DNA from: a virus
DNA: 64,000 nucleotides
IMG/VR virus record: IMGVR_UViG_3300006923_000005
Strand: one strand, 5' to 3'
Shown here: one piece after another, positions 9,091 through 55,586 of the stretch
How the letters are laid out: every line of letters starts with the position of its first letter
How positions within the stretch are numbered: position 1 is the stretch's first letter
Translations under genes and position numbers: made by a program
The notes under the pieces: model-generated
What the model saw: only the letters and a program-made list of their open reading frames with translations
Database searches by the model: none
Told to the model about the DNA's origin: nothing

Positions 9091-9501
9091 ATGAAATATC
9101 CAACGATGAAATTTTTACTAGAAAGTGCTGATGCAAACAGCACAGTGACGATTGACTATGGCAGCTACGGTGTGTCTGCAGCTGGCCCAGGCGGATACGA
9201 TGTTGGTGAACGTGATGTTCCTGACCACTGGGAAATCAAAGCTGCGCATGGAACAGATGAGTGGCAAGAGGAATGGATTGGCAATCTCATGATTGACATC
9301 ATGAAGGACCCCAAGGTTAAATCTGTTGTTGACACTGAGTGGACTGGTCACTCTGGGACTACTGGCATTTATGACAAAATTCCAAAGCTGCGCTGGGCCA
9401 AGAAGGTTGCAGCAACGCTGCAAGATCCTGATTGGGGCCGAGGTGCTGAGCTTCCTGGCTTCTGGCCACAACATGATGATGATGATTTCATGGGTAATTA
9501 G
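9091..9501 (+). CDS. Leader-bearing protein (MKYPTMKFLLESA...), a putative virion-packaged cargo protein.
   Basis: ATG after a GGAGTGA RBS. The N-terminus matches the 11-member leader family. Confidence 0.6.
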   Translation: MKYPTMKFLLESADANSTVTIDYGSYGVSAAGPGGYDVGERDVPDHWEIKAAHGTDEWQEEWIGNLMIDIMKDPKVKSVVDTEWTGHSGTTGIYDKIPKLRWAKKVAATLQDPDWGRGAELPGFWPQHDDDDFMGN

Positions 9502-9680: not shown

Positions 9681-9706
9681 TTCAAGCTGAGGCACGACAT
9701 CTAATG
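9681..9706 (+). repeat. 26-bp direct repeat R1b. It supplies the RBS and ATG of the kinase gene.
   Basis: Matches 8229-8254. Confidence 0.7.
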
Positions 9707-10390
9707 TTCCCCACAATGTCGTATTTACTTGAGTCTGATTATACAGACAACGTGTCCAAGGCAGATGTTGTAGAGGCACTGGCGCAGGAGGGATATGTTG
9801 GTGCTGTAGAAGTAGGTGACGGATTTCACGGAACTGTTTGGTCAGCGACTGACCAGCAGGGCCGGCAGGTTGCAATCAAAACTCACTATGCGTATCGGCT
9901 TGAGCTTGACACGATCAAGAGAGAGATTGCTGAGTATAAAAGGCTTAAGGGAGCGCTGCCAAGCAATTTGAGCAAGCACCTCATCCAGTTCTATCGAGTC
10001 TTCTTTTTGCCAATTGGCTTTGGCGATCACATGACACCGTGTGTTGTAGCTGAATTTCTTGAGCCGTTAAATTCTGCCGAGCAGAAAGAGGTTGCTTTTC
10101 TTTTTGGGTTGCTTGACGATGATACAGAAGTTCTTAGCTACACTGGGCCGTCGAATTGGAATGACCCTCTACCGCACCAAGATCGTCTAGATAAGATTGA
10201 AAAGCTGCGTGCCAAAGCAGGCACGTTGCAGACCATGGTAGATTTCCTTGAGGCGTCTAGTCTGTTCTGGGCTGACGTGAGTCCCGGGAATGTAATGAAG
10301 CGCCCACGGACAAAGGAGCTGGTTTTCATTGACTACGATTACTGGGTCATGCCAACTGTGTATCCCTATAAGTCACGCGGCCTTTATTAA
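9704..10390 (+). CDS. Eukaryotic-like Ser/Thr protein kinase with the family leader (MFPTMSYLLES...).
   Basis: Gly-rich loop GDGFHGTVW, VAIK beta3 lysine, alphaC Glu (REIAEYKRL), catalytic-loop-like WADVSPGNVM and a DFG-like FIDYD. It is in frame with the upstream duplicated ruvC start, but an internal ATG with the conserved leader is the likely start. Confidence 0.6.
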   Translation: MFPTMSYLLESDYTDNVSKADVVEALAQEGYVGAVEVGDGFHGTVWSATDQQGRQVAIKTHYAYRLELDTIKREIAEYKRLKGALPSNLSKHLIQFYRVFFLPIGFGDHMTPCVVAEFLEPLNSAEQKEVAFLFGLLDDDTEVLSYTGPSNWNDPLPHQDRLDKIEKLRAKAGTLQTMVDFLEASSLFWADVSPGNVMKRPRTKELVFIDYDYWVMPTVYPYKSRGLY

Positions 10391-10391
10391 A

Positions 10392-10452
10392 GTGAAAGAG
10401 ATTAATGCAATGCTACTCATCGGACTCGACGTCAGTACTTCCTGTACTGGCT
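10392..10452 (+). repeat. 61-bp direct repeat R2b, the functional 5' end of the ruvC-like gene.
   Basis: Identical to 9611-9671. Confidence 0.8.
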
Positions 10453-17500: not shown

Positions 17501-19195
17501 ATGGCATTCACTAAGAAGGTCCTGACAGAGGAGCTTCGTCGGTGCACAAGACAACCGGCTGAGGGTGATGCGTATGACAGCGCAGGAGCCATCTATTTCA
17601 TGAAGAAGTACGGGTACATCTCGCATCCAGTGCGAGGTAAGATCCGCTTTGACATGTTCAAATTCCAGGAAGAAGCCACACAGCTGTTCGATGAGAACCG
17701 CTTTGCTATCATCCTGAAGGCACGCCAGCTTGGCTTTTCAACGCTGCTTGCAATGTACGTCACATGGCTCATGCTGTTCAAGCGTGACCAAGTTGTCATT
17801 ATTATCTCTAAGGATGCCGCAGCTGCTAAGGGTCTTATTCGTAAGATCAAGTACGCGCTGAAGGCACTGCCATATGAATTCAAGCGCGCCTTTGGCATCT
17901 CTTATGACGATAAGAAGCGTCGGGGTGATGTCAAGCTCGTAGCAGATAACGTTCACACAATCGAGTTGCCAAACGGTTCAACTGTTAAGGCCATGGCACC
18001 CACAGACAATGCGGGCACCTCTGAATCGACGTCACTTCTTGTTATCGATGAGGCGGCAAAGATTCCAAATCTCGACACAATCTGGACGTCAGCATACCCA
18101 ACAATTTCAACAGGTGGTCGAGCCATTGTGTTCAGCACTCCCTTCGGCGTCGGTGGCATGTTCCACAAGATGTACGAAGATTGTGTGGCGGGCAGAAATG
18201 ATTTCGTTGCGCTTCGGCCACTTATGTGGCATGAACATCCTGATCGTGATGAAGAATGGTTCAAGACGGAGACCCGCAACTTCTCCAAGAAGAAGATTGC
18301 ACAGGAATATGAGTGCAACTTCCTATTTTCAGGTGATACAGTTATTTCTGGTCAAAGACTTGAAGTCCTACAAGCACACGCAATTGATAAGTGGCATACA
18401 GAAGGCCGTGACGGCAGGATTTGGGTTTACGAAACATATAAGCCAGGGCATAAGTATGTAATTGGCTCTGATGTCGCCAGAGGTGACGGAGAAGATTATT
18501 CATCATTTTCCATTCTTGATGCTGAGATGGGACAGGTTGTTGCTGATTTCAAGGGTAGATTGAAGCCAACAACATTTGGGCACCTCCTATATGATATTGG
18601 GCATGAGTATGGTGGCTGTGCAATCTCTGTTGAGAACACAGGGATTGGCTGGACAACTGTTGAGAAGCTTGAAGAACTGCGTTATCCTGCCCTTATTTAT
18701 ACAGTCAAAGGCAAGCCTGCCGAGCATGTTCTTGTGAAGTATGGGACACACCGAAAAGACCTTGTTCCAGGCTTCACAATGTCTTCAACGGTGCGTCCTC
18801 TTATTGTTGCACGCATGCAAGAGTGGATTGAATCGGGGGATGATGAAGAAAATGAAATTGTTCCTAAGCTCCCGCCAAGACTGCTTGAAGAACTGAAGAC
18901 GTTCATTTGGCTCAACAACAAACCCCAGCACATGCGGGGCTACCATGATGATTTAATCGTAGCTTATTCCCAAACCTTGTGGCTGCGTGATAGAATTGTA
19001 TTAATTAATGATTCAAGAGAAGTCGAAGGAATGCTGGCCGGAATGACACTCGAAACTAATACTGTTACTGACATGACAGGCTATAAGTCAGATGAGTTTG
19101 CCCCACAGAAGCCATCACAAGCGCAGTTGAAGCGCAAGAGTGTATATGGGGAAAAATTCGATATCGACTTTTCATGGCTTATCTCGACTGGCTGA
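17501..19195 (+). CDS. 17: Terminase large subunit.
   Basis: ATPase segment with a Walker A-like GFSTLLAMY region and Walker B LLVIDEAAKI. C-terminal nuclease domain. Lies upstream of the portal gene. Confidence 0.85.
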   Translation: MAFTKKVLTEELRRCTRQPAEGDAYDSAGAIYFMKKYGYISHPVRGKIRFDMFKFQEEATQLFDENRFAIILKARQLGFSTLLAMYVTWLMLFKRDQVVIIISKDAAAAKGLIRKIKYALKALPYEFKRAFGISYDDKKRRGDVKLVADNVHTIELPNGSTVKAMAPTDNAGTSESTSLLVIDEAAKIPNLDTIWTSAYPTISTGGRAIVFSTPFGVGGMFHKMYEDCVAGRNDFVALRPLMWHEHPDRDEEWFKTETRNFSKKKIAQEYECNFLFSGDTVISGQRLEVLQAHAIDKWHTEGRDGRIWVYETYKPGHKYVIGSDVARGDGEDYSSFSILDAEMGQVVADFKGRLKPTTFGHLLYDIGHEYGGCAISVENTGIGWTTVEKLEELRYPALIYTVKGKPAEHVLVKYGTHRKDLVPGFTMSSTVRPLIVARMQEWIESGDDEENEIVPKLPPRLLEELKTFIWLNNKPQHMRGYHDDLIVAYSQTLWLRDRIVLINDSREVEGMLAGMTLETNTVTDMTGYKSDEFAPQKPSQAQLKRKSVYGEKFDIDFSWLISTG

Positions 19196-19222
19196 GCATA
19201 GTCGAGGATTTCGGAGGATTGC

Positions 19223-20257
19223 ATGAAATATTTACCAACGATGAGAATGCTACTAGAAGCCACACAGGTTGATTTCACACTGCGGCAGTTTGTTTCACGT
19301 TATCGCGCCAGCGGAGTAACACAGCACCCCCCCGTTTCTGGTGAGCATGTTAACACTGGGCCTATGCGCAGCCGAGTGGGTGTGCAAAAGCGGGCAGTGT
19401 ATGCTAACGTAGAAGATCATGATTTACACGCTTTTAAGTACAGCAAGCTGTTTATTGATTACTTTCCGGGCTGGACAAGTGATTATAAAAAGATGTGGAC
19501 TTCAATTGTGACTGTGACTGAAACGCCGGGAACTCCCCAAGTTTTCCATTCATACTATAAACAAATTCCAGAGCAAGCGTACGTGTACGTGATCAGCAGT
19601 ATTAAAGAGCAGGATCAGCAATTTATGGAGTTGCTGGCCAGTACGATTGAAGATGCGAATCTGCAGATGCTGGGCAAAGAAGCGCCTGCGAAGCACCTTG
19701 GTTATTCTGACGATGAAGAAACTGTTTATTCAAGGAAGCGCCCGGGCTTAGCCAATAGAAAAGCCGACATCCTCCCGCCGACTGCGGCCTTTATAAAAAA
19801 ATTGCAGCAGCTAGTGGTCTCTGGAAAGTTTGACGACTTTCCAGCACCAGATGCAGCTTCCTGGGCCAAAAGCCAGAAAGCGTTCACGGGTTTGTTCCAA
19901 GCACTATATGCTGCGTTTGGTGTGCAGCTTGATGAGGGTGAAGTTATCACTCTGATCACAGACGCATTTTTTCGTGATGTTGAAGAATTGATGCAAGAAA
20001 ATGCTGAAGAATTGACGTGGTTCATTGTTATCGATCACATGAGCTACAAGCTTCCAGAGCAGGATGTAGCTGCTGCAAAGAACGCAATCGCAGCTGGCGA
20101 AGATGTTGGCTGGGGTACTGCTGATAGTTCAATTCCAGCGTGGTGGTTAACAGAGGAGCAGTTTCTTACGAACATGAGCAGTACCCCAACACTTGACGCA
20201 TTTATGCAGGCTTGCGAACAGAACCACACAGAAGAGTTTGCTTGGGAAAACGCTTGA
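19223..20257 (+). CDS. Leader-bearing protein (MKYLPTMRMLLEAT...), a putative packaged cargo of unknown function.
   Basis: Member of the N-terminal leader family. Confidence 0.6.
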   Translation: MKYLPTMRMLLEATQVDFTLRQFVSRYRASGVTQHPPVSGEHVNTGPMRSRVGVQKRAVYANVEDHDLHAFKYSKLFIDYFPGWTSDYKKMWTSIVTVTETPGTPQVFHSYYKQIPEQAYVYVISSIKEQDQQFMELLASTIEDANLQMLGKEAPAKHLGYSDDEETVYSRKRPGLANRKADILPPTAAFIKKLQQLVVSGKFDDFPAPDAASWAKSQKAFTGLFQALYAAFGVQLDEGEVITLITDAFFRDVEELMQENAEELTWFIVIDHMSYKLPEQDVAAAKNAIAAGEDVGWGTADSSIPAWWLTEEQFLTNMSSTPTLDAFMQACEQNHTEEFAWENA

Positions 20258-20393
20258 TGCACTACCTCGTCTACCAGACTACCAACACTGTCAATGGAAA
20301 GATCTACGTTGGTGTACACCAGACTGAAGAACTGAAACGTTCATTTGGCTCAACAACAAACCGCAGCACATGCGCGGCTATCATGATGACTTA
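20256..20393 (+). pseudogene. Truncated GIY-YIG homing endonuclease N-terminus (MHYLVYQTTNTVNGKIYVGVHQTE), fused out of frame to a duplicated terminase 3' end.
   Basis: Matches the I-TevI/Seg N-terminus GIYQIKNTLNNKVYVGS. Only about 24 homologous codons remain. Confidence 0.5.
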
Positions 20394-20627
20394 ATCGTAG
20401 CTTATTCACAAACCTTGTGGTTGAGGGATAGAATTGTGCTAATTAACGATAGCCGTGAAGTTGAAGGAATGCTGGCAGGCATGACGCTGTCGACGAATAC
20501 CATTCAGGATGTGACAGGTTATAAAGCTGATGAATTTGCTCCAAGAAAGCCATCACAAAGTCACTTGAAGACTAAGAGCGTATACGGCGAGAAATTTGAT
20601 GTCGACTTTTCGTGGTTGATTGGATGA
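20327..20627 (+). repeat. Diverged, recoded duplicate of the terminase 3' end (the original is 18877-19195). Its 85-aa reading frame has lost the start.
   Basis: Protein identity is about 85% (MRGYHDDLIVAYSQTLWLRDRIVLIND...). There are many synonymous changes and a 1-nt deletion at the junction. Confidence 0.75.
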
Positions 20628-20636
20628 GGGCTGATT

Positions 20637-21770
20637 ATGAAGTTTCCAACAATACAAAAATTGCTGCTTGAGGCTTCAAAGAAAGAAAAGGTCCAAGCTG
20701 ATCCTGACTTTTTAAATCCAGACGTTTCACACAAAGAGCTGGCAAATAGATACAACATGGATTTATCTAGTGTTTCGAAGTATCGCCGTGCTGCAGGTCT
20801 TGCTCCCCTTAAAAGAGGTGGCCCAGGTGTAATAGCCAAGCTTAGAAAAGATCCGGATATCTATGACAAGAATGTCATGCATAAGACAATTGCAGCTCGC
20901 TATGGTATTAATTCTGCTACAGTTTTAAGAATTCGACAGAGGTTAGGTGTTAAAGGCTTTAAGAGTTCAATGGGACCAATTCTTAAGAATGATCCAGATA
21001 TTAGAAATCGTGATATTACTAATAAAGAACTCGGACAAAGGTATGGCATTGATGCATCAAGAGTTAGTATCTATCGTAAAGAATTAGGTATTGAGCCTAG
21101 GCGAATGAGCAGAAAAGAGATTGTTGCATTCCATAAGAAGCTTAAGGCAGATCCTCACTTTATGAATGGAAGGGTAAGTGCAGTTGAGCTTGCAGCCAAG
21201 TATGACGTAGCACCTGCAACAATCAAGAATTTACGAAAAGCAGCAGGTTTTAAGCCATATACTCCTAAGTGGTTTAATGATTCAATTCTTAAAGATAAAC
21301 TTGTAGGGCATGCTGAGGTAATTGCAAAATTACGCACTAGATTTCCAGGCGAGCTTGACACAATTACACTTAGCCGCGTAAGGGCACGCCGCAGAAAGCT
21401 GGGAATTGAATTTGGCCATGCCGGCCCCCGTGCAAGACAGCCAAAAGAGCCAAGCGAAATTATCGATATCTTTGATGACGATGATGATTTTCTAACAGAT
21501 GAAGATCTATCTGACGAAGAAGTGTCAATAGAGATTGGTCTTCCGCTTGCAACAGTCTTTTATAAGCGTGATATGTTAAAAGTTAAGAGACCACCAATCA
21601 AGAAGCCCCTCGGAAAAACAAGTAAGCTTGTAAATGATCCACGCATGCTTGACGAAACATTGACAGACAAAGAAGTTGCAGAGCAAATGGGCGTGCGTTT
21701 TGCAAATGTGTACTATATCAGAAGTAGGTTAGGTGTAAAGCGCCCATCTGATTCAGGGGATATAAAGTGA
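20637..21770 (+). CDS. Leader-bearing protein (MKFPTIQKLLLEAS...) with at least 5 tandem HTH-like repeats of about 47 aa.
   Basis: Repeats such as ELANRYNMDLSSVSKYRRAAGL, TIAARYGINSATVLRIRQRLGV and ELGQRYGIDASRVSIYRKELGI. Confidence 0.65.
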   Translation: MKFPTIQKLLLEASKKEKVQADPDFLNPDVSHKELANRYNMDLSSVSKYRRAAGLAPLKRGGPGVIAKLRKDPDIYDKNVMHKTIAARYGINSATVLRIRQRLGVKGFKSSMGPILKNDPDIRNRDITNKELGQRYGIDASRVSIYRKELGIEPRRMSRKEIVAFHKKLKADPHFMNGRVSAVELAAKYDVAPATIKNLRKAAGFKPYTPKWFNDSILKDKLVGHAEVIAKLRTRFPGELDTITLSRVRARRRKLGIEFGHAGPRARQPKEPSEIIDIFDDDDDFLTDEDLSDEEVSIEIGLPLATVFYKRDMLKVKRPPIKKPLGKTSKLVNDPRMLDETLTDKEVAEQMGVRFANVYYIRSRLGVKRPSDSGDIK

Positions 21771-22195
21771 AGTTTCCAACAATACAAAAACTGACAGAAG
21801 TAGTTGACGAGTTTAGCGCCCGCCACGTTGAAAGTGCGATTAATAAAGTAGCAGAAAAAATAAGAAGAGATCCTAGCATTGTTATTCAAGAGCTTGAGCA
21901 GCTCCTTATGCTTGTAAAAAGATTAACGCACGGCATGTTTACACTTGATTTTCCAGATTCAAAATATCGTGATAATGATGTTGATCTCATTGATGGAATA
22001 GAGAACTTAATTGAAGCAGTACGTGATGGTGAAGAAATAGAAGAGGTCTTTTATTTTTTAAAGATGTATGCAACATTTGCAAAATCACAGTATGACATGA
22101 AGGCTGCTATTGATATTCTGCGAAGAGATTTTAACTTTGCAAAAAGTGCAAGTGATATTGGGCGCGAAGTTGAAGATGAACTTGATTTTGATTGA
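21767..22195 (+). CDS. Small acidic leader-bearing protein (MKFPTIQKLTEVV...).
   Basis: GTGA overlap. The 5' nucleotides are identical to the start of 20637 (gaagtttccaacaatacaaaaa). Confidence 0.55.
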   Translation: MKFPTIQKLTEVVDEFSARHVESAINKVAEKIRRDPSIVIQELEQLLMLVKRLTHGMFTLDFPDSKYRDNDVDLIDGIENLIEAVRDGEEIEEVFYFLKMYATFAKSQYDMKAAIDILRRDFNFAKSASDIGREVEDELDFD

Positions 22196-22276
22196 TTACT
22201 GCGGGCAAATAAAGAAGTATAATCTATTTACAATTAGCAATCAAGTTTGATTGCAACAGAATGAAGGTAACAAACA

Positions 22277-24052
22277 GTGGCTGACGTTTTCAAACAATTG
22301 ACCAGGCTCTTTAAGTCTGGACCAGTGGTTCGCCACAGGATCCAGCGCCTTCCGTACCAACCGTCTGATTCTTCCGGCTTTAGCTCTCTATCATACAACA
22401 CGTACAGTACAGTTTCGAACGTAGGCCAAATTGAACGAATGGCGCGCTACAACGACTATGCCGAGATGGAGATGACGCCGGAGCTTGCTTCAGGTCTTGA
22501 CATCTACGCTGATGAAACATGCGTTCCAGATCCTCACGGCAGAATCATCCAGATTAAGTCTCAAGATGAAGATATTCGCCTGATCCTCGAACAGCTTTTC
22601 GGTGACATTCTGAACCTCGACTTCCAGCTTTGGGGTTGGACTCGTAATATGTGCAAGTACGGCGATCAGATGCTGTACCTTGATGTGAACGAGCACAACG
22701 GTCTCTTGCAAGCTGTTCCAATTCCAATTAATGAAATTGAGCGTGAAGAAGGCTACGATCCCAAGGATCCATTTGCATATCGTTTCCGTTGGGTAACGAT
22801 GGGAAACCGTGTGCTGCAGCCGTGGCAGGTTGCGCACTTCCGCGTTCTTGGTAATGATGTGTTCCTTCCCTATGGTACGTCAGTAATTGAACCTGCCCGC
22901 CGCATCTGGCGCCAGCTTCTTCTCATTGAAGATGCCATGCTTGTCTATCGTATCATCCGCTCACCTGAGCGCCGTGTCTTCTATATTGACGTAGGAAATG
23001 TTGAGCCTGAGAAGGTTCCGGCATTTATGGAGCGCGCAAAGTCAGCCCTTAAGCGTTCACAGGTTGTCGACAGTTCAACTGGGCGCGTTGATCTGCGCTA
23101 CAACCCACTTTCCGTAGATGAGGATTACTTTGTTCCTGTCCGCGGCGATAAATCATCACGAATTGAAACACTCCCTGGAGGCCAGTTCACAGGTGATATT
23201 GAAGATGTGCAATACATTCAAAGCAAGTTGTTTGCGGCACTCAAGATTCCAAAGAGTTACCTTGGCTATGAAGAAGATCTAGGTGCAAAGTCAACACTTG
23301 CCCAGGAAGATATTCGCTTCGGCAGAACAATTGGCAGAATCCAACGAAGCATTATTAGTGAATTAACACGAATTGCAATCATTCACCTTTTCATCCTTGG
23401 GTACACAGGCGACGCCCTCTTCAATTTTGAAATTGACATGACGTCCCCGTCAAAGATTTACGAGATGCAGCAACTTGAACTCCTCAGGACAAAGATGGAA
23501 GTTGCTGGCCAGGCCGGTGAAGGACTCTTTGACAAGCAGTGGCAGTATGATAATATCTTCTTCATCCCCCGCAATGTGCAGGAAGGAATTCAAAATCGTT
23601 TAAAGGATGATAGGATGTTTGAGCTTGAGCTTGAAAGTATGGAAGCTCCTCAGGATGAGAAAGAGAATCCTGAGGAAGTAAAGCCTGAAGAGAAGCCTAA
23701 GAAGGAAGAGGAAGCAGTCAGCTTAACTGATGGTCACATCTACGACGATTCTGAGCTTGAAGAATTATCTGGGCATGATAAGCGGAAGTCCTCTGGTCCT
23801 CGCCGCCAAAGTAATCACTCTGTTGCATTCCCAGAAGTTGATCGCGATATGTTTAATGTTGATATTGGTGGCCTTGTACAAGCATCACTCGGCGAACGCC
23901 AAATCAAGAAGCATTCGACACTCCTTGAAAGTATTGCTAAAGGCATGCCAGAGCTGTCCAGAAGCCGTCCAGAACAACAAATTGAAGAGCTTGAACTGGA
24001 TGATGATGATGCATTTGGTATTGATGAAAGCTTAAACATTTCGGGCAAATAG
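22277..24052 (+). CDS. 20: Portal protein (T4 gp20 family).
   Basis: VYRIIRSPERRVFYIDVGN matches T4 VYRITRAPDRRVWYVD. Also DEDYFVPVRG and an acidic C-terminus. Confidence 0.85.
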   Translation: MADVFKQLTRLFKSGPVVRHRIQRLPYQPSDSSGFSSLSYNTYSTVSNVGQIERMARYNDYAEMEMTPELASGLDIYADETCVPDPHGRIIQIKSQDEDIRLILEQLFGDILNLDFQLWGWTRNMCKYGDQMLYLDVNEHNGLLQAVPIPINEIEREEGYDPKDPFAYRFRWVTMGNRVLQPWQVAHFRVLGNDVFLPYGTSVIEPARRIWRQLLLIEDAMLVYRIIRSPERRVFYIDVGNVEPEKVPAFMERAKSALKRSQVVDSSTGRVDLRYNPLSVDEDYFVPVRGDKSSRIETLPGGQFTGDIEDVQYIQSKLFAALKIPKSYLGYEEDLGAKSTLAQEDIRFGRTIGRIQRSIISELTRIAIIHLFILGYTGDALFNFEIDMTSPSKIYEMQQLELLRTKMEVAGQAGEGLFDKQWQYDNIFFIPRNVQEGIQNRLKDDRMFELELESMEAPQDEKENPEEVKPEEKPKKEEEAVSLTDGHIYDDSELEELSGHDKRKSSGPRRQSNHSVAFPEVDRDMFNVDIGGLVQASLGERQIKKHSTLLESIAKGMPELSRSRPEQQIEELELDDDDAFGIDESLNISGK

Positions 24053-24056
24053 AGGC

Positions 24057-25001
24057 ATGTTTCCGACCATCTCGAACCTGTTGCTCGAAGTTACGATGCA
24101 GCAGGTAGAACAACGCTTTGAGGGCAAGAAGTTCCGGCGTGCTATTCAAAAGCATGTAAAGCTGCCAGGTGCTCTCGAAACTACGCCTGGTGAAGTTGTT
24201 GTGATGGTCAAGGGTCTCGTTCCTGAAGACATTCCGGAGGCATCAAAAGCTGAGGCGCTGAATTGGGCGATCAGCATCTTCATCTCTGGCGAGCTCGGGA
24301 AGCATATGAACGCGAAGCACGGCGGAATTGACATCTACGTCGATCTTGTGAGTGACATTGAGACGTTCTACCAGACAAAGGAAGCGGGCTTAGATCATCT
24401 ACTTGATGAGCGTGACATCTATCGGTATACCGATGTAGCTGCTTTCATGGATGACATGCAGGATGTCGTTGTCAAGCTAGCGAACCATAGAGCTGGCAAA
24501 GTTAATCCCACCCTTGCGGCCGAGGGCTTGAATCTGATCGGAGAAACGCCCGAGTGGCAGATCTTCATCCCTGAGAATAAAGCTGCCGCCTGCAAGCTTG
24601 GGCAAAATACGAAGTGGTGCACAGCAGCGCCGGGTCTCAATTACTACGAAGAGTATCACAGCGAGGACGACCCTCTTATCATCTTCAAGCATAAGAAAGA
24701 TGAAGAGAAGGATCTGCAGTTTCACTTTGCCATTCCTTCTGACGGGCCCCCTCGTCGAGGACAGTATATTGACTACGGGTTGTATTCCGGCGGTGATTAT
24801 AGTCAATGGTACGAAGATCACGGACAGCATGAAGAAGGCCAGGGTCCACAGTTCAGCGACGTAAATGATCGCCCTGTAGCATTTCAAGTTGTGAAGACGA
24901 TGGTGCATATCTTAAAGCGCATGCCGAAGCTGCCAAGAAAAGTAAAAGACTATCTTGAGCACGACTTTGATGTGAATGCAATCGACTTCAGTCATGCATA
25001 A
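24057..25001 (+). CDS. Leader-bearing protein (MFPTISNLLLEV...) with a conserved core of unknown function. Paralog of 44905-45816.
   Basis: Shared blocks WQIFIPENKAAACKLGQNTKWCTAAPGLNYY and DPLIIFKHK. Confidence 0.6.
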   Translation: MFPTISNLLLEVTMQQVEQRFEGKKFRRAIQKHVKLPGALETTPGEVVVMVKGLVPEDIPEASKAEALNWAISIFISGELGKHMNAKHGGIDIYVDLVSDIETFYQTKEAGLDHLLDERDIYRYTDVAAFMDDMQDVVVKLANHRAGKVNPTLAAEGLNLIGETPEWQIFIPENKAAACKLGQNTKWCTAAPGLNYYEEYHSEDDPLIIFKHKKDEEKDLQFHFAIPSDGPPRRGQYIDYGLYSGGDYSQWYEDHGQHEEGQGPQFSDVNDRPVAFQVVKTMVHILKRMPKLPRKVKDYLEHDFDVNAIDFSHA

Positions 25002-27796: not shown

Positions 27797-27807
27797 GGAG
27801 ATTAATC

Positions 27808-28407
27808 ATGGCTGATCGAAAAATCCTCTGCGAATTTTACCAGCTTGAGTATGATGCTGACAAGCTTCGTGAGGATGTGGAGGCTGGTCGTGACATCATC
27901 CTCTCTGGCCGGTGCCAGCATGCTGATTTGGGAAATGCAAATGAGCGCAAGTATCCGCGTGAAATTCTTGAACGTGAAGTTCAAAATTATCAAACACCCA
28001 TTCAAGAGCGAAGAGCGTATGGAGAGCTTGATCATCCACAAGACACTGTTGTAAACTTGCAGAAGGCATCACACATGATGACTGAAGTCTGGTGGGAAGG
28101 TGATGAAGTTTTTGGAAAGCTTAAGCTAATGGGAACCCCGACAGGCCAAATTGCTGAGGCAATCCTTAAGGCAGGCGGAGTATTAGGAATTAGTTCACGC
28201 GGAGTTGGTTCGACACAAGCCTCTGGTGGCTTTGATGTAGTCCAAGATGATTTCCAATTAATTTGCTTTGATTTAGTATCTGAACCATCAACACCCGGTG
28301 CATACGTGCTACCAGAAGGCAAACGGATCTTGCGGCCAAGAGAGCGAAATGATCGCATCACCAGGATTGCAAACAATATAATTTTCCACAAGCGTGGCAA
28401 GGAGTAA
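27808..28407 (+). CDS. 21: Prohead core protease (T4 gp21 family, peptidase U9).
   Basis: RKYPREILEREVQNY, GELDHP, ISSRGVGS and FDLVSEPSTPGAYV match gp21. Confidence 0.8.
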   Translation: MADRKILCEFYQLEYDADKLREDVEAGRDIILSGRCQHADLGNANERKYPREILEREVQNYQTPIQERRAYGELDHPQDTVVNLQKASHMMTEVWWEGDEVFGKLKLMGTPTGQIAEAILKAGGVLGISSRGVGSTQASGGFDVVQDDFQLICFDLVSEPSTPGAYVLPEGKRILRPRERNDRITRIANNIIFHKRGKE

Positions 28408-44904: not shown

Positions 44905-45816
44905 ATGACAGCATTTCCAACCATGTTCCAGCTCCTCAACGAGATTTCGTATAGTCAGGTTGAGCAGCGGTTTAAAAGTAAAAAGTTCAAGAATGCTGTG
45001 ATGCGCTTGAAGCAAATGCCGGGTGAACATAGTTCGTATGAAAACCTCTATCAGGATTTTCTACAAGAGATTGAGGATGCAGTCCCACACGATATTGAAG
45101 ACAAGTATAGAGGTGAAGCGCTGAACTGGTTAATTGGTAGTTTTGTTCACGCAACCAAGGATGTAAAAGCTGCCAGAAATTGGGAAAGGAGTCTTCCTCA
45201 TGCTCTGGGGCACCTTGAAATCTTCTATCAAATGAAAGCGCAAGGCGTTGATGTAATCCTAGAGAAAAACAACATTTACGATATTCCCAGTATTGGAGAG
45301 CTTATTAGAATTGTCAATGATGCTGAAGAAGAATATCATGAGCACATGGCTGCTCGCCCAATCGCAGGTGATGCAAGTGCTGGGATGAATCTTATTGGTG
45401 AAGATGACGAATGGAAGATCTTCATTCCTGAGACACACGCAGCAGCCTGCTATCTTGGCAAGGGTACGAGGTGGTGCACGGCAGCGCCGGGCCTGAAGAA
45501 GTATTATAATCAATACCACAAGAAAAACGACCCACTTATCATCTTTAAGCATAAGCAGGATTCGAGGAAGGATGTTCAGATACACTTTGATGTGACAAAT
45601 TGGCTCAAATTTAAAGGCCAAGTTGAATATGATGAGGATCGCTGGCCTGATTATGAAGATTATCTTGAGTATGTTGGATATCCAGGGCCCCAACCCTCAT
45701 TCATGGATGTCAAAGATGAACCGCTTGATGATCCTGAGCAATTTGTTAGGATTCTTAAGAAATTTGCCACCAAGTTGCCGAGTGATCTCCAGCGCCACCT
45801 CCGTAAAGAGTGGTAA
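44905..45816 (+). CDS. Leader-bearing paralog of 24057-25001 (MTAFPTMFQLLNEIS...).
   Basis: Shared blocks WKIFIPETHAAACYLGKGTRWCTAAPGLKKYY and DPLIIFKHK. Confidence 0.6.
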   Translation: MTAFPTMFQLLNEISYSQVEQRFKSKKFKNAVMRLKQMPGEHSSYENLYQDFLQEIEDAVPHDIEDKYRGEALNWLIGSFVHATKDVKAARNWERSLPHALGHLEIFYQMKAQGVDVILEKNNIYDIPSIGELIRIVNDAEEEYHEHMAARPIAGDASAGMNLIGEDDEWKIFIPETHAAACYLGKGTRWCTAAPGLKKYYNQYHKKNDPLIIFKHKQDSRKDVQIHFDVTNWLKFKGQVEYDEDRWPDYEDYLEYVGYPGPQPSFMDVKDEPLDDPEQFVRILKKFATKLPSDLQRHLRKEW

Positions 45817-55433: not shown

Positions 55434-55586
55434 ATGAAGTTTCCAACAATCACTGGTCTCTTAACAGAAGCTGAAGGTGCCTCACATCTTGTTAAAGCTT
55501 TGCTGAAATACAAAGATGACCAGGCTGTGATGGCCATGCCAGGACTATACACACCTGGGAGCCCACACTGGAAGAAGGACACATAA
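55434..55586 (+). CDS. 50-aa leader ORF (MKFPTITGLLTEAEG...). It is in frame with the downstream metallopeptidase gene across a single TAA.
   Basis: Same frame as 55590 (both coordinates divisible by 3). Only TAA-CGC separates the two ORFs. Confidence 0.45.
   Translation: MKFPTITGLLTEAEGASHLVKALLKYKDDQAVMAMPGLYTPGSPHWKKDT

What the first reader, a model, noticed from the sequence alone, without database searches (positions are those of the whole stretch)
18877..20627. Recoded duplication of the terminase 3' end fused to a truncated GIY-YIG homing-endonuclease start
Copy A (18877-19195) is the functional 3' end of the terminase gene. Copy B (20327-20627) encodes almost the same peptide (MRGYHDDLIVAYSQTLWLRDRIVLINDSREVEGMLAGMTL...) but with many synonymous differences. 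It is joined, with a 1-nt slip, to an ORF that starts MHYLVYQTTNTVNGKIYVGVHQTE, a textbook GIY-YIG N-terminus as in I-TevI and the T4 Seg proteins. Between the copies lies a leader-family cargo gene (19223-20257). Together these look like the scar of a freestanding homing-endonuclease invasion that brought a replacement terminase 3' end and a cargo gene, followed by decay of the endonuclease.
Basis: seen in the sequence. Interest (0 to 1): 0.7.

Follow-up and report, generated by a model that had tools for sequence, protein, structure and literature searches.

The report
Terminase tail fossil beside dead homing endonuclease
An uncultured T4-like phage carries a second, dead copy of the last 100 codons of its DNA-packaging (terminase) gene joined to the first 24 codons of a selfish homing-endonuclease gene; it is a recombination scar of a known kind, not a working device.

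Summary
The last 103 codons of the T4-type large terminase gene (copy A, 18887-19195) recur at 20326-20627 (copy B) at about 80% nucleotide and 88% protein identity. Copy B is joined in frame, apart from a one-base deletion at 20336/20337, to 24 codons of a GIY-YIG homing endonuclease (20257-20328). The stretch from 19900 to 21125, which spans that junction and copy B, is base-identical in five assemblies, and two of these also span copy A, so it is not an assembly artefact.

"Recoded" over-reads the data. dN/dS between the copies is 0.08 with dS about 1.3. That is the ordinary divergence of two functional terminase genes from related phages, later brought together by recombination.

The closest relative (82% terminase) has the same 344-aa gene followed by the same endonuclease start, truncated at a different point. 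It also holds two short direct fossils of the terminase 3' end and an inverted 28-nt copy of the terminase site where copy B begins.

Best reading: one-sided, endonuclease-associated illegitimate break repair between related phages. It inserted [terminase 3' end, 344-aa gene, endonuclease] and left the other terminase tail as a fossil. Which copy was resident is undecided, and endonuclease causation is inferred. This is a known kind (T4 one-sided homing; fungal mitochondrial mORF gene hybrids), of moderate interest.

The parts
17501..19195 (+). Large terminase gene (TerL, T4 gp17 type, 564 aa), intact
   Evidence: Pfam Terminase_6N E=9e-11 and PHROG 2 E=1e-42. PDB T4 gp17 3ezk/3cpe E about 1e-26. 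82% identical to P0001 and 53% to P0002.
18887..19195 (+). Copy A: the last 102 codons plus stop of the working terminase gene. It includes the YHDD motif that aligns with T4 gp17 residues about 520-559.
   Evidence: Alignments.
18887..18912 (+). Terminase site EELKTFIW(L), a candidate break or recognition site. Copy B starts at the equivalent position, and L003 carries an inverted 28-nt copy of the equivalent site.
   Evidence: The L003 inverted copy at 2314-2341 matches 26/28 nt (local score 46 against a maximum of 33 in 30 shuffles; 0 expected in 200 shuffles).
19223..20257 (+). 344-aa gene with N-terminal leader MKYLPTMRMLLEA. It is an ORFan found only in this phage and in L003 (75% aa identity).
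   Evidence: No Pfam or PHROG family. HMMER against 1.84 billion representatives finds only itself. The AF2 single-sequence model is unusable, pLDDT 32.
20257..20328 (+). Remnant of a free-standing GIY-YIG homing-endonuclease gene, the first 24 codons. It holds the two motifs that give the family its name (here LVY and YVG), but nothing aligns to the rest of the three full-length homologues (217-245 aa). Its start codon overlaps the stop of the 344-aa gene (TGATG).
20257..20394 (+). 45-aa ORF made of the endonuclease remnant plus 21 out-of-frame codons read from copy B. Gene callers call it in public assemblies.
20320..20337 (+). Junction between endonuclease and terminase (CAGACT|GAAGAACTGAA) and the single-base deletion between 20336 and 20337. 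At most about 6-7 nt of possible microhomology (AGACTG / GAA).
   Evidence: Direct reading; codon table.
20326..20627 (+). Copy B: fossil of a terminase 3' end from a related lineage (100 codons plus stop, one frameshift).
   Evidence: Against A, dS is 1.32, dN 0.10 and dN/dS 0.078. Synonymous divergence rises 5' to 3' from 0.30 to 0.61 to 0.79. Ancestral-type C-terminus ..FSWLIG*.
20370..20627 (+). 85-aa ORF inside copy B, starting at an internal terminase Met. There is no Shine-Dalgarno-like sequence in the 20 nt upstream (ctcaacaacaaaccgcagcac). Probably not a gene.
20637..21770 (+). 377-aa leader-bearing protein made of repeated helix-turn-helix modules. It follows copy B in the same way that the first leader gene follows the terminase gene in L003.
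21767..22195 (+). 142-aa leader-bearing gene (similar N-terminus and position to L003 5298-5705). Its first 26 nt repeat those of the 377-aa gene (25/26).
   Evidence: (repeat D2).
22277..24052 (+). Portal gene (T4 gp20 type), the right-hand boundary of the variable array.
   Evidence: Pfam Portal_T4 E=3e-70. In L004 the portal gene follows the terminase gene directly.

Best explanation
Copy B and the 24-codon GIY-YIG start are a non-functional recombination scar.

Two related T4-like phages carried different gene sets between terminase and portal. One had terminase, then the 344-aa gene, then a free-standing GIY-YIG homing endonuclease. The other had terminase followed directly by the helix-turn-helix gene. 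In a mixed infection, a break in or near the terminase 3' region was repaired with good homology on the left (the conserved terminase gene) and none on the right. The right-hand join was therefore illegitimate. It fell between codon 24 of the endonuclease gene and terminase codon 463.

The product has one complete terminase gene (ending in copy A), the 344-aa gene, a decapitated endonuclease, and the leftover 3' end of the other phage's terminase (copy B) in front of its original downstream gene. A one-base deletion then broke the accidental in-frame fusion. The many synonymous differences are the pre-existing divergence between the two parental terminase genes. That divergence also keeps the two copies from recombining and deleting the insert.

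Shown: the duplication, the endonuclease identity, the junction, the selection pattern, the shared endonuclease position in a relative, and an empty site in a more distant relative.

Inferred: that the break was made by this endonuclease at the EELKTFIW site (about 0.5), that B rather than A is the displaced resident tail (about 0.6), and that neither small ORF is expressed to any purpose (about 0.85).
For: (1) Copy B evolved as part of a working gene. dN/dS between A and B is 0.078 with dS 1.32, and there is no amino-acid change in the first 55 codons against 17 synonymous codon changes, including TCA to AGC. A neutral B branch would predict about 103 non-synonymous differences; 22.6 are observed. 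For codons 1-25, about 10 are expected and 0 observed.

(2) B is now broken. It has a one-base deletion at its fourth codon, no Shine-Dalgarno-like sequence before the internal ATG, and it covers only the last part of the nuclease domain, gp17 residues about 520 to the end.

(3) The endonuclease is genuine and dead.

(4) Relative L003 (terminase 82% identical) has the same 344-aa gene and the same overlapping endonuclease start, but keeps only 17 codons followed by unrelated sequence. The two truncations are therefore independent.

(5) Synonymous divergence between the window and L003 is 0.20 in the 17 shared endonuclease codons. It is 0.41 for these plus the last 30 codons of the 344-aa gene, against 0.72 in the rest of that gene (Fisher p=0.002). 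This is the pattern expected if the endonuclease moved between the lineages more recently than the genomes diverged.

(6) L004 (53% terminase) has the portal gene directly after the terminase gene, which is an empty site.

(7) L003 contains further terminase-tail fossils. FDVDFSWLVG* lies directly before its 344-aa gene. YGVDLDFSWLMG* is joined to a truncated helix-turn-helix gene at a 12-nt microhomology. GGGATAGCAGAT precedes three cassettes.

(8) L003 has an inverted 28-nt copy of the terminase site at which copy B begins.

(9) The mechanism is documented. According to the review PMC2988022, homing in T4 with homology on one side only proceeds by illegitimate double-strand-break repair with junctions at microhomologies. 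According to PMC2790892, co-conversion extends up to about 2 kb from the cut.
Against: No relative with a full-length endonuclease was found. No 'B-lineage' phage (terminase followed directly by the helix-turn-helix gene) was found either. Donor, recipient and target site are therefore all inferred.

Neither of the two direct terminase-tail fossils in L003 is joined to the endonuclease remnant: one follows the end of the 173-aa gene and the other a truncated helix-turn-helix gene. Such scars can therefore arise without the endonuclease sitting at the join.

Microhomology at the window's junction is short and ambiguous.

The evidence for more recent endonuclease exchange rests on 47 codons.

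The rise in synonymous divergence along A against B (0.30 to 0.79; Fisher p=0.003 for first against last segment) has no unique explanation. It could reflect a conversion tract at the join, later gene conversion between the copies, or mosaic ancestry.

Copy B retains an 85-codon open frame, and public gene callers call it.
Confidence: 0.6

Rival explanations
1. The recombination was illegitimate but independent of the endonuclease. The terminase-portal interval is a hyperplastic array of leader-bearing cassettes that is shuffled by ordinary illegitimate or short-homology recombination between co-infecting phages. The endonuclease gene simply happened to be the sequence at the breakpoint.
For: The direct terminase-tail fossils in L003 have junctions at the end of a 173-aa gene and inside a helix-turn-helix gene (at a 12-nt microhomology), not at the endonuclease remnant. 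Leader sequences and the GGGATAGCAGAT-ATG boundary recur and could serve as short homologies. Viability alone selects for junctions that keep one terminase gene intact and leave short remnants.
Against: Two independent rearrangement end-points, the start of copy B in the window and the inverted 28-nt copy in L003, coincide at one terminase site. An endonuclease whose known role is to make such breaks lies at the junction. Synonymous divergence is reduced around the endonuclease start.
Confidence: 0.25
2. Copy B is a functional gene. The 85-aa C-terminal terminase fragment, or a frameshifted fusion with the endonuclease start, is expressed and kept by selection, for example as a modulator of packaging or a decoy.
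For: The 85-codon frame is open. dN/dS against A is very low. B has fewer derived amino-acid changes than A. Gene callers annotate it.
Against: Low dN/dS is equally expected if B was recently cut out of a working terminase gene. There is no ribosome-binding sequence upstream. No classical slippery heptamer was seen on inspection of the sequence around the deletion. The fragment starts in the middle of the RNase-H-like nuclease fold. L003 has no equivalent ORF, and its fossils are only 8-12 codons long. There is no family match.
Confidence: 0.07
3. A natural 'cleave and rescue' design. The endonuclease cuts the terminase gene of competitors, and the cassette carries a recoded, cleavage-immune replacement 3' end (copy A). 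On this reading the synonymous changes are selected immunity.
For: The architecture (essential-gene 3' end, then cargo, then endonuclease) travels together in both the window and L003. Free-standing T4 endonucleases do depend on target-site differences between donor and recipient (PMC2790892).
Against: At the only candidate target site, A and B are identical over 37 positions apart from B's one-base deletion, so A is not recoded there. The synonymous differences are spread over the whole 300 nt and increase away from the junction. Window against L003 shows the same near-saturated synonymous divergence in all genes examined.
Confidence: 0.07
4. Assembly artefact or chimeric contig.
For: The source is metagenomic.
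Against: The stretch 19900-21125, which holds the junction and copy B, is identical in five assemblies made with different assemblers from different samples, and two of them also span copy A. The copies share at most 26 identical bases in a row.
Confidence: 0.01

Closest known systems
[quoted passage not shown]
   Same: A GIY-YIG endonuclease context in a T4-type phage. Homology is available on one side only. The other junction forms at short or no homology, which gives ectopic joins and leftover recipient sequence.
   Different: That system is an experimental one with an intron-encoded enzyme. Here it is a natural event with a free-standing endonuclease, and the endonuclease gene itself was truncated at the join. 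Cleavage was not observed.
Free-standing Seg/Mob homing endonucleases of T4 (SegF, SegG, MobE) with co-conversion of flanking markers (PMC2790892)
   Same: A free-standing endonuclease gene lies between genes, its start overlaps the upstream gene, its presence varies among relatives, and it decays by truncation. The proposed target lies a few hundred bases from the insertion point inside a conserved essential gene.
   Different: Normal Seg/Mob homing replaces recipient sequence without duplication. Here a 300-nt duplicate remains. A terminase target has not been shown.
Fungal mitochondrial mobile-ORF gene hybrids (Allomyces macrogynus atp6; Glomus atp6, atp9, cox2, nad3; PMC3630166)
   Same: The layout matches: gene core, then an inserted foreign C-terminal end that completes the gene, then an endonuclease ORF (GIY-YIG in atp9), then the displaced native C*-terminal copy. 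The two copies are similar in protein but much more diverged in DNA (Glomus atp6: 63.5% nt and 91% aa; here about 80% nt and 88% aa).
   Different: In the fungal elements the endonuclease ORF is often in phase with the inserted end and is intact. Here an unrelated 344-aa gene lies between, the endonuclease is a 24-codon stump, and the host is a phage. In the fungal cases, close relatives show which copy is native; that test was inconclusive here.
Hyperplastic internal-protein locus of T-even phages, in which genes share a capsid-targeting leader (recalled from the T4 literature, not tested here)
   Same: A variable array of unrelated genes shares a short conserved N-terminal leader with an L-x-E motif, in a phage that encodes a T4-type prohead protease.
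   Different: The location (terminase-portal interval) and the leader sequence differ. Packaging or cleavage of these proteins has not been shown.

Membership tests
GIY-YIG homing endonuclease (free-standing, Seg-like) | N-terminal beta-hairpin holding the two motifs that give the family its name | tested here: met
   MHYLVYQTTNTVNGKIYVG aligns with the N-termini of annotated phage endonucleases. PHROG 314 E=7e-10. Pfam GIY-YIG reaches only E=0.04, below its cut-off, because of length.
GIY-YIG homing endonuclease (free-standing, Seg-like) | Complete catalytic domain (the Pfam GIY-YIG profile is 78 positions) | tested here: not met
   Only 24 codons remain. Full-length homologues of 217-245 aa match nothing else in the 64-kb window.
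GIY-YIG homing endonuclease (free-standing, Seg-like) | C-terminal DNA-binding domain joined by a linker | tested here: not met
   Absent. The frame runs into terminase sequence.
GIY-YIG homing endonuclease (free-standing, Seg-like) | Patchy presence among related genomes, next to conserved genes | tested here: met
   Remnants are present in the window and in L003. L004 and L005 have none, and there the portal gene follows the terminase gene directly.
GIY-YIG homing endonuclease (free-standing, Seg-like) | Site-specific cleavage of endonuclease-less relatives, and homing | not testable with these tools
   No intact enzyme exists to test. The candidate site rests on two coincident rearrangement end-points.
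Mobile-ORF gene hybrid with C-terminal duplication (fungal mitochondrial type) | Upstream copy in phase and completing the host gene; downstream copy displaced | tested here: met
   Copy A completes a 564-aa terminase that aligns along its length with relatives. Copy B lies 1.4 kb downstream and is frameshifted.
Mobile-ORF gene hybrid with C-terminal duplication (fungal mitochondrial type) | Endonuclease ORF lies between the two copies | tested here: met
   The remnant at 20257-20328 lies directly upstream of copy B.
Mobile-ORF gene hybrid with C-terminal duplication (fungal mitochondrial type) | Downstream copy is native (closer to near relatives) and the upstream copy is foreign | tested here: inconclusive
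   A and B are equally distant from L003 (72% and 73% aa). B is slightly closer to L004 (50% against 48%). B keeps ancestral states at 5 informative sites against 1 for A, and has the ancestral C-terminus. No closer relative is available.
Mobile-ORF gene hybrid with C-terminal duplication (fungal mitochondrial type) | Endonuclease ORF directly follows, or is in phase with, the inserted C-terminal end | tested here: not met
   A separate 344-aa gene with its own start lies between copy A and the endonuclease remnant.
One-sided homing / illegitimate double-strand-break repair (T4) | Homology between the partners on one side of the break only | tested here: met
   The terminase gene is conserved, but the content downstream of it differs among the window, L003 and L004.
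One-sided homing / illegitimate double-strand-break repair (T4) | Junction at microhomology | tested here: inconclusive
   Between 1 and 7 nt are possible at 20320-20328, and the native endonuclease sequence beyond codon 24 is unknown. A clear 12-nt microhomology is seen at one L003 junction.
One-sided homing / illegitimate double-strand-break repair (T4) | Break made by the endonuclease | not testable with these tools
   This needs an intact enzyme and cleavage mapping.
T4-type large terminase (gp17 family) | N-terminal ATPase and C-terminal RNase-H-like nuclease domains | tested here: met
   Pfam Terminase_6N, and PDB 3ezk/3cpe aligned over residues 29-397. The YHDD motif aligns with the gp17 C-terminal region.

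The most novel reading that the evidence does not exclude
The terminase-portal array of leader-bearing genes (possibly proteins packaged into the capsid) may be built by serial one-sided homing events at a single site of about 28 nt in the terminase gene. Each event would load a new cassette directly behind the terminase gene and leave a fossil of the previous terminase tail. The fossils would then act as 'growth rings' that record the order of acquisition. On this reading the GIY-YIG endonuclease acts as the cassette loader for a hypervariable arsenal, rather than as a purely selfish passenger.
Probability: 0.2. Interest if true: 0.65.

Novelty: new member of a known kind. Interest (0 to 1): 0.4.

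Why it matters
This is a clean natural example, in an uncultured T4-like phage, of what laboratory T4 crosses predict for homing with homology on one side only. It is also the phage counterpart of the mitochondrial gene hybrids made by mobile endonuclease ORFs.

It has three practical uses. It warns annotators that the 45-aa and 85-aa ORFs called here are scar tissue. It gives a candidate target site for an unsampled family of terminase-directed homing endonucleases. And it suggests that terminase-tail fossils could be used to read the history of a hypervariable gene array next to the packaging genes.

It does not reveal a new mechanism.

Tried and rejected
Searches for relatives that found nothing:
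- Near-identical DNA in 50,697 phage records gave no match. The best cultured terminase relative is only 35% identical.
- A composite query for a full-length endonuclease found only the two remnants themselves.
- The 344-aa protein found only itself among 5.8 billion proteins and among 1.84 billion representatives.
- Scans of metagenome and viral contigs with the 344-aa alignment, and with a degenerate DNA pattern for TFIWL..KPQHMRGYHDD, found nothing. The 'B-lineage' phage and an intact endonuclease therefore remain unsampled.
- The exact look-up of P0123 was not on record.

Analyses that gave nothing usable:
- The AF2 model of the 344-aa protein is unusable, pLDDT 32.

Ideas rejected or left unsupported:
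- The 32 residues after the endonuclease start in L003 are not supported as the endonuclease C-terminus. There were no PHROG hits and no relevant tblastn hits.
- A group I intron or other RNA element between the copies was ruled out: no Rfam hit at E<=1 and no tRNA.
- Promoter and terminator scans were not above shuffled expectation. The T4 late-promoter motif TATAAATA has no plus-strand match between 17000 and 22500; its single match there (18694-18701) is on the minus strand.
- A recombination breakpoint inside the terminase gene (window against L003) was not significant at four-fold sites, p=0.13.
- The rise in raw identity towards the endonuclease is largely amino-acid conservation. Only the synonymous test on the last 47 codons holds.
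- Programmed frameshifting across the one-base deletion was considered, but no classical slippery heptamer was seen around it on inspection.
- GC content does not single out the 344-aa gene. The helix-turn-helix and 142-aa genes are the AT-richer ones.

Full report
**1. What is there**

The window encodes a T4-type large terminase at 17501-19195. Support comes from Pfam Terminase_6N, PHROG 2 and the gp17 structures 3ezk/3cpe. A T4-type portal lies at 22277-24052. Four features lie between them on the same strand:
- a 344-aa ORF at 19223-20257;
- a 45-aa ORF at 20257-20394;
- a 377-aa helix-turn-helix repeat protein at 20637-21770;
- a 142-aa ORF at 21767-22195.

The terminase 3' end (18887-19195, copy A) recurs at 20326-20627 (copy B). 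Nucleotide identity is about 80% and protein identity 88% (tblastn E=2e-60). Directly upstream of copy B are 24 codons, MHYLVYQTTNTVNGKIYVGVHQTE. Their reading frame runs straight into the terminase frame, except that one base is missing: GAAGACG in A is GAAACG in B, at 20336/20337.

The 24 residues are a GIY-YIG homing-endonuclease N-terminus. PHROG 314 matches at E=7e-10. tblastn hits 925 phage records at up to 74% identity, and most of the rows listed are annotated as homing endonucleases. Three full-length homologues align to them and hit nothing else in the window. The Pfam models stay below threshold only because the fragment is short. Nothing aligns to the remainder of those homologues, so the catalytic and DNA-binding parts are gone and the remnant cannot be an active enzyme.

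**2. Not an artefact**

Three short contigs (L011-L013, from ERZ27249191, JGI 3300006789 and JGI 3300025103) match window 19900-21125 without a mismatch. That stretch spans the junction and copy B. The Logan contig L007 (SRR5701579) and the 175.7-kb ENA contig L006 (ERZ27249139) also span copy A; L007 is identical throughout, and L006 differs only at five positions between 10399 and 10439. The two copies never share more than 26 identical bases in a row.

**3. What the sequence differences mean**

Between A and B, dS is 1.32, dN is 0.10 and dN/dS is 0.078. The first 55 codons have no amino-acid change but 17 synonymous codon changes.

If B had drifted as a pseudogene since the two copies split, about 103 non-synonymous differences would be expected. 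Only 22.6 are seen. In codons 1-25, about 10 would be expected and none is seen. Nearly all the divergence therefore accumulated while both sequences were parts of working terminase genes, that is, in two different phage lineages. 'Recoded' is thus a description of the result, not of a process.

Where outgroups are informative, B keeps the ancestral residue at five sites and A at one. B also ends like the relatives (..WLIG*, compared with ..WLMG* and ..WLVG*), whereas A has an extra Ser-Thr. This fits B as a recently stranded resident tail, but it is not proof.

Divergence between the copies also explains why the scar persists, because identical 300-nt repeats would recombine and delete the insert.

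One detail is unexplained. Synonymous divergence between A and B climbs from 0.30 (codons 1-25) to 0.61 and then 0.79 (Fisher p=0.003 for first against last). Both copies are saturated against L003 in codons 1-25, so there is no general nucleotide constraint there. The cause could be a conversion tract at the join, later gene conversion, or mosaic ancestry.

**4. Relatives**

Only two close terminase relatives exist among 5.8 billion proteins.

In L004/L005 (53% identity) the portal gene follows the terminase gene directly, so this is an empty site.

L003 (82% identity) has a longer array:
- a 286-aa leader gene and a 173-aa leader gene;
- the orthologous 344-aa gene;
- an ORF that starts, with the same stop-start overlap, MHYLVYQTTNAINGKIY and then continues into 32 residues of unknown origin;
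- a 101-aa leader gene, then a 50-aa chimera, then a 135-aa gene and a 516-aa helix-turn-helix protein;
- the portal gene.

Both lineages therefore inherited 'terminase end, 344-aa gene, endonuclease', and each lost the endonuclease body at a different point (17 codons kept in L003, 24 in the window).

Synonymous divergence between the window and L003 is near saturation in the terminase, 344-aa and portal genes (0.69-0.71). It is only 0.20 in the 17 shared endonuclease codons. It is 0.41 when the last 30 codons of the 344-aa gene are added, against 0.72 for the rest of that gene (p=0.002). This is the pattern expected if the endonuclease and its immediate flank moved between the lineages after they diverged. 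The sample is small.

**5. More terminase fossils in L003**

- Directly before the L003 344-aa gene lies TTTGACGTGGACTTCTCATGGTTGGTGGGATAG, which reads FDVDFSWLVG*. This is a terminase tail at least as close to the window's copy B as to L003's own terminase end.
- The 50-aa chimera is the start of the helix-turn-helix gene joined, at the 12-nt microhomology TATGGTGTTGAT, to the last 12 codons of L003's own terminase.
- All three first cassettes are preceded by GGGATAGCAGAT-ATG, which is the last terminase codon, the stop and the spacer.
- A 28-nt inverted copy (26/28) of the L003 terminase site ATCGAAGAGCTTAAGACATTCATCTGG (I-EELKTFIW) sits inside the 286-aa gene. None is expected by chance. 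This is the same site at which the window's copy B begins.

Two independent rearrangement end-points at one conserved terminase site suggest a preferred break site.

**6. Mechanism**

The review PMC2988022 summarises work showing that T4 homing with extensive homology on one side and none on the other proceeds by illegitimate double-strand-break repair, with junctions at microhomologies and extensive resection. PMC2790892 documents free-standing endonucleases that cut at a distance from their own gene, with co-conversion up to about 2 kb.

The window is what such an event would leave. The left side was resolved by homology inside the terminase gene. The right side joined illegitimately between endonuclease codon 24 and terminase codon 463. 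In a cassette-less recipient, the proposed cut site would lie about 310 nt from the terminase stop, where cassettes are inserted.

I rate the scar reading at about 0.85. The full statement, with the endonuclease as the cause, is rated 0.6, and the step that the endonuclease made the break at about 0.5. The main rival is the same illegitimate recombination with the endonuclease as a bystander (0.25). That rival is supported by the L003 junctions that do not touch the endonuclease remnant.

A functional 85-aa product is unlikely (0.07). There is no ribosome-binding sequence, the fragment starts in the middle of the nuclease fold, there is no counterpart in L003, and there is no family match. No RNA element or intron lies between the copies.

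**7. Comparison with what is known**

The layout matches the fungal mitochondrial mobile-ORF gene hybrids described in PMC3630166, which cites the Allomyces atp6 case. In those, the order is gene core, inserted foreign C-terminal end, endonuclease ORF, then displaced native C*-terminal copy, and the copies are alike in protein but diverged in DNA.

There are three differences here. An unrelated 344-aa gene sits between copy A and the endonuclease. The endonuclease is a stump. And the test for which copy is native is inconclusive for lack of close relatives.

The finding is therefore a new member of a known kind. The serial terminase-tail fossils in L003 hint at a more interesting possibility, that the leader-gene array is built by repeated events at one terminase site. 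That is stated as the novel case at 0.2.

**8. Limits**

No intact endonuclease, no B-lineage genome and no expression data are available. Donor and recipient roles, the target site and non-expression are all inferences.

Noticed in passing
window 9091-9501, 9704-10390, 19223-20257, 20637-21770, 21767-22195, 24057-25001, 44905-45816, 55434-55586; L003 2101, 3078, 3633, 4813, 5146, 5298, 5798: Many otherwise unrelated ORFs begin with the same leader, M(K)(F)PT[IM]xxLLxE, and almost all of them have an L-x-E motif at about residues 10-13. A Peptidase_S77 (T4 prohead protease) gene lies at about 27807-28406. This recalls the capsid-targeting, protease-cleaved leaders of T4 internal proteins (recalled from the literature). 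It suggests that these are proteins packaged into the head.
   Followed up: partly
window 20637-21770; L003 5798-7348: Leader-bearing proteins built from repeated helix-turn-helix modules (D/NPDxxNxxxSxxELAxKYGVxxxTVxxxRKxxGI). Their PHROG hits fall in families annotated as HNH and homing endonucleases and as DNA-binding proteins. They may be a capsid-delivered DNA-binding protein related to endonuclease DNA-binding modules.
   Followed up: partly
L003 2314-2341 (minus strand) and 1789-1816: An inverted 28-nt copy (26/28) of the terminase site I-EELKTFIW is embedded in the coding sequence of the 286-aa leader gene. Two of its three mismatches over the 29-nt pattern agree with the window-type sequence. 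The G that is deleted in the window's copy B is G-to-A here.
   Followed up: partly
L003 2084-2100, 3061-3077, 3616-3632, 5266-5298: The terminase last codon, stop and spacer (GGGATAGCAGAT) precede three successive cassettes, and a near-identical 33-nt terminase tail ends a 50-aa chimeric ORF. Cassettes appear to have been stacked behind the terminase gene one after another.
   Followed up: partly
L004 6408-9002; L005 3446-6028: In the 53%-identical relative, the portal gene follows the terminase gene after a 15-nt spacer. The whole leader-gene array is absent.
   Followed up: yes
window 17720-17746 (terminase residues about 74-82): The terminase P-loop reads KARQLGFST, so it lacks the usual GKT lysine. 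The relatives read KARQLGFST and KARQLGLST. It resembles the deviant Walker A motifs described for some terminases (recalled, not tested).
   Followed up: no
window 10399-10439: The only differences between the window and the 175.7-kb ENA contig over 20 kb are four substitutions and one indel within 41 nt. This is a small hypervariable spot.
   Followed up: no
window 19900 and 21125: Two independent short contigs (ERZ27249191, JGI 3300006789) start and end at these positions, and a third (JGI 3300025103) ends at 19973 and 21071. This suggests strain-level variation or repeats on both sides of the scar in natural populations.
   Followed up: no
window 20638-20663 and 21768-21793: The first 26 nt of the 377-aa and 142-aa genes are 25/26 identical at the DNA level, one starting with ATG and the other with GTG. 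This is a short homology that could mediate cassette shuffling.
   Followed up: no
window 20500-22299: The helix-turn-helix and 142-aa genes have 34-43% GC, against 45-50% for the terminase, 344-aa and portal genes.
   Followed up: no
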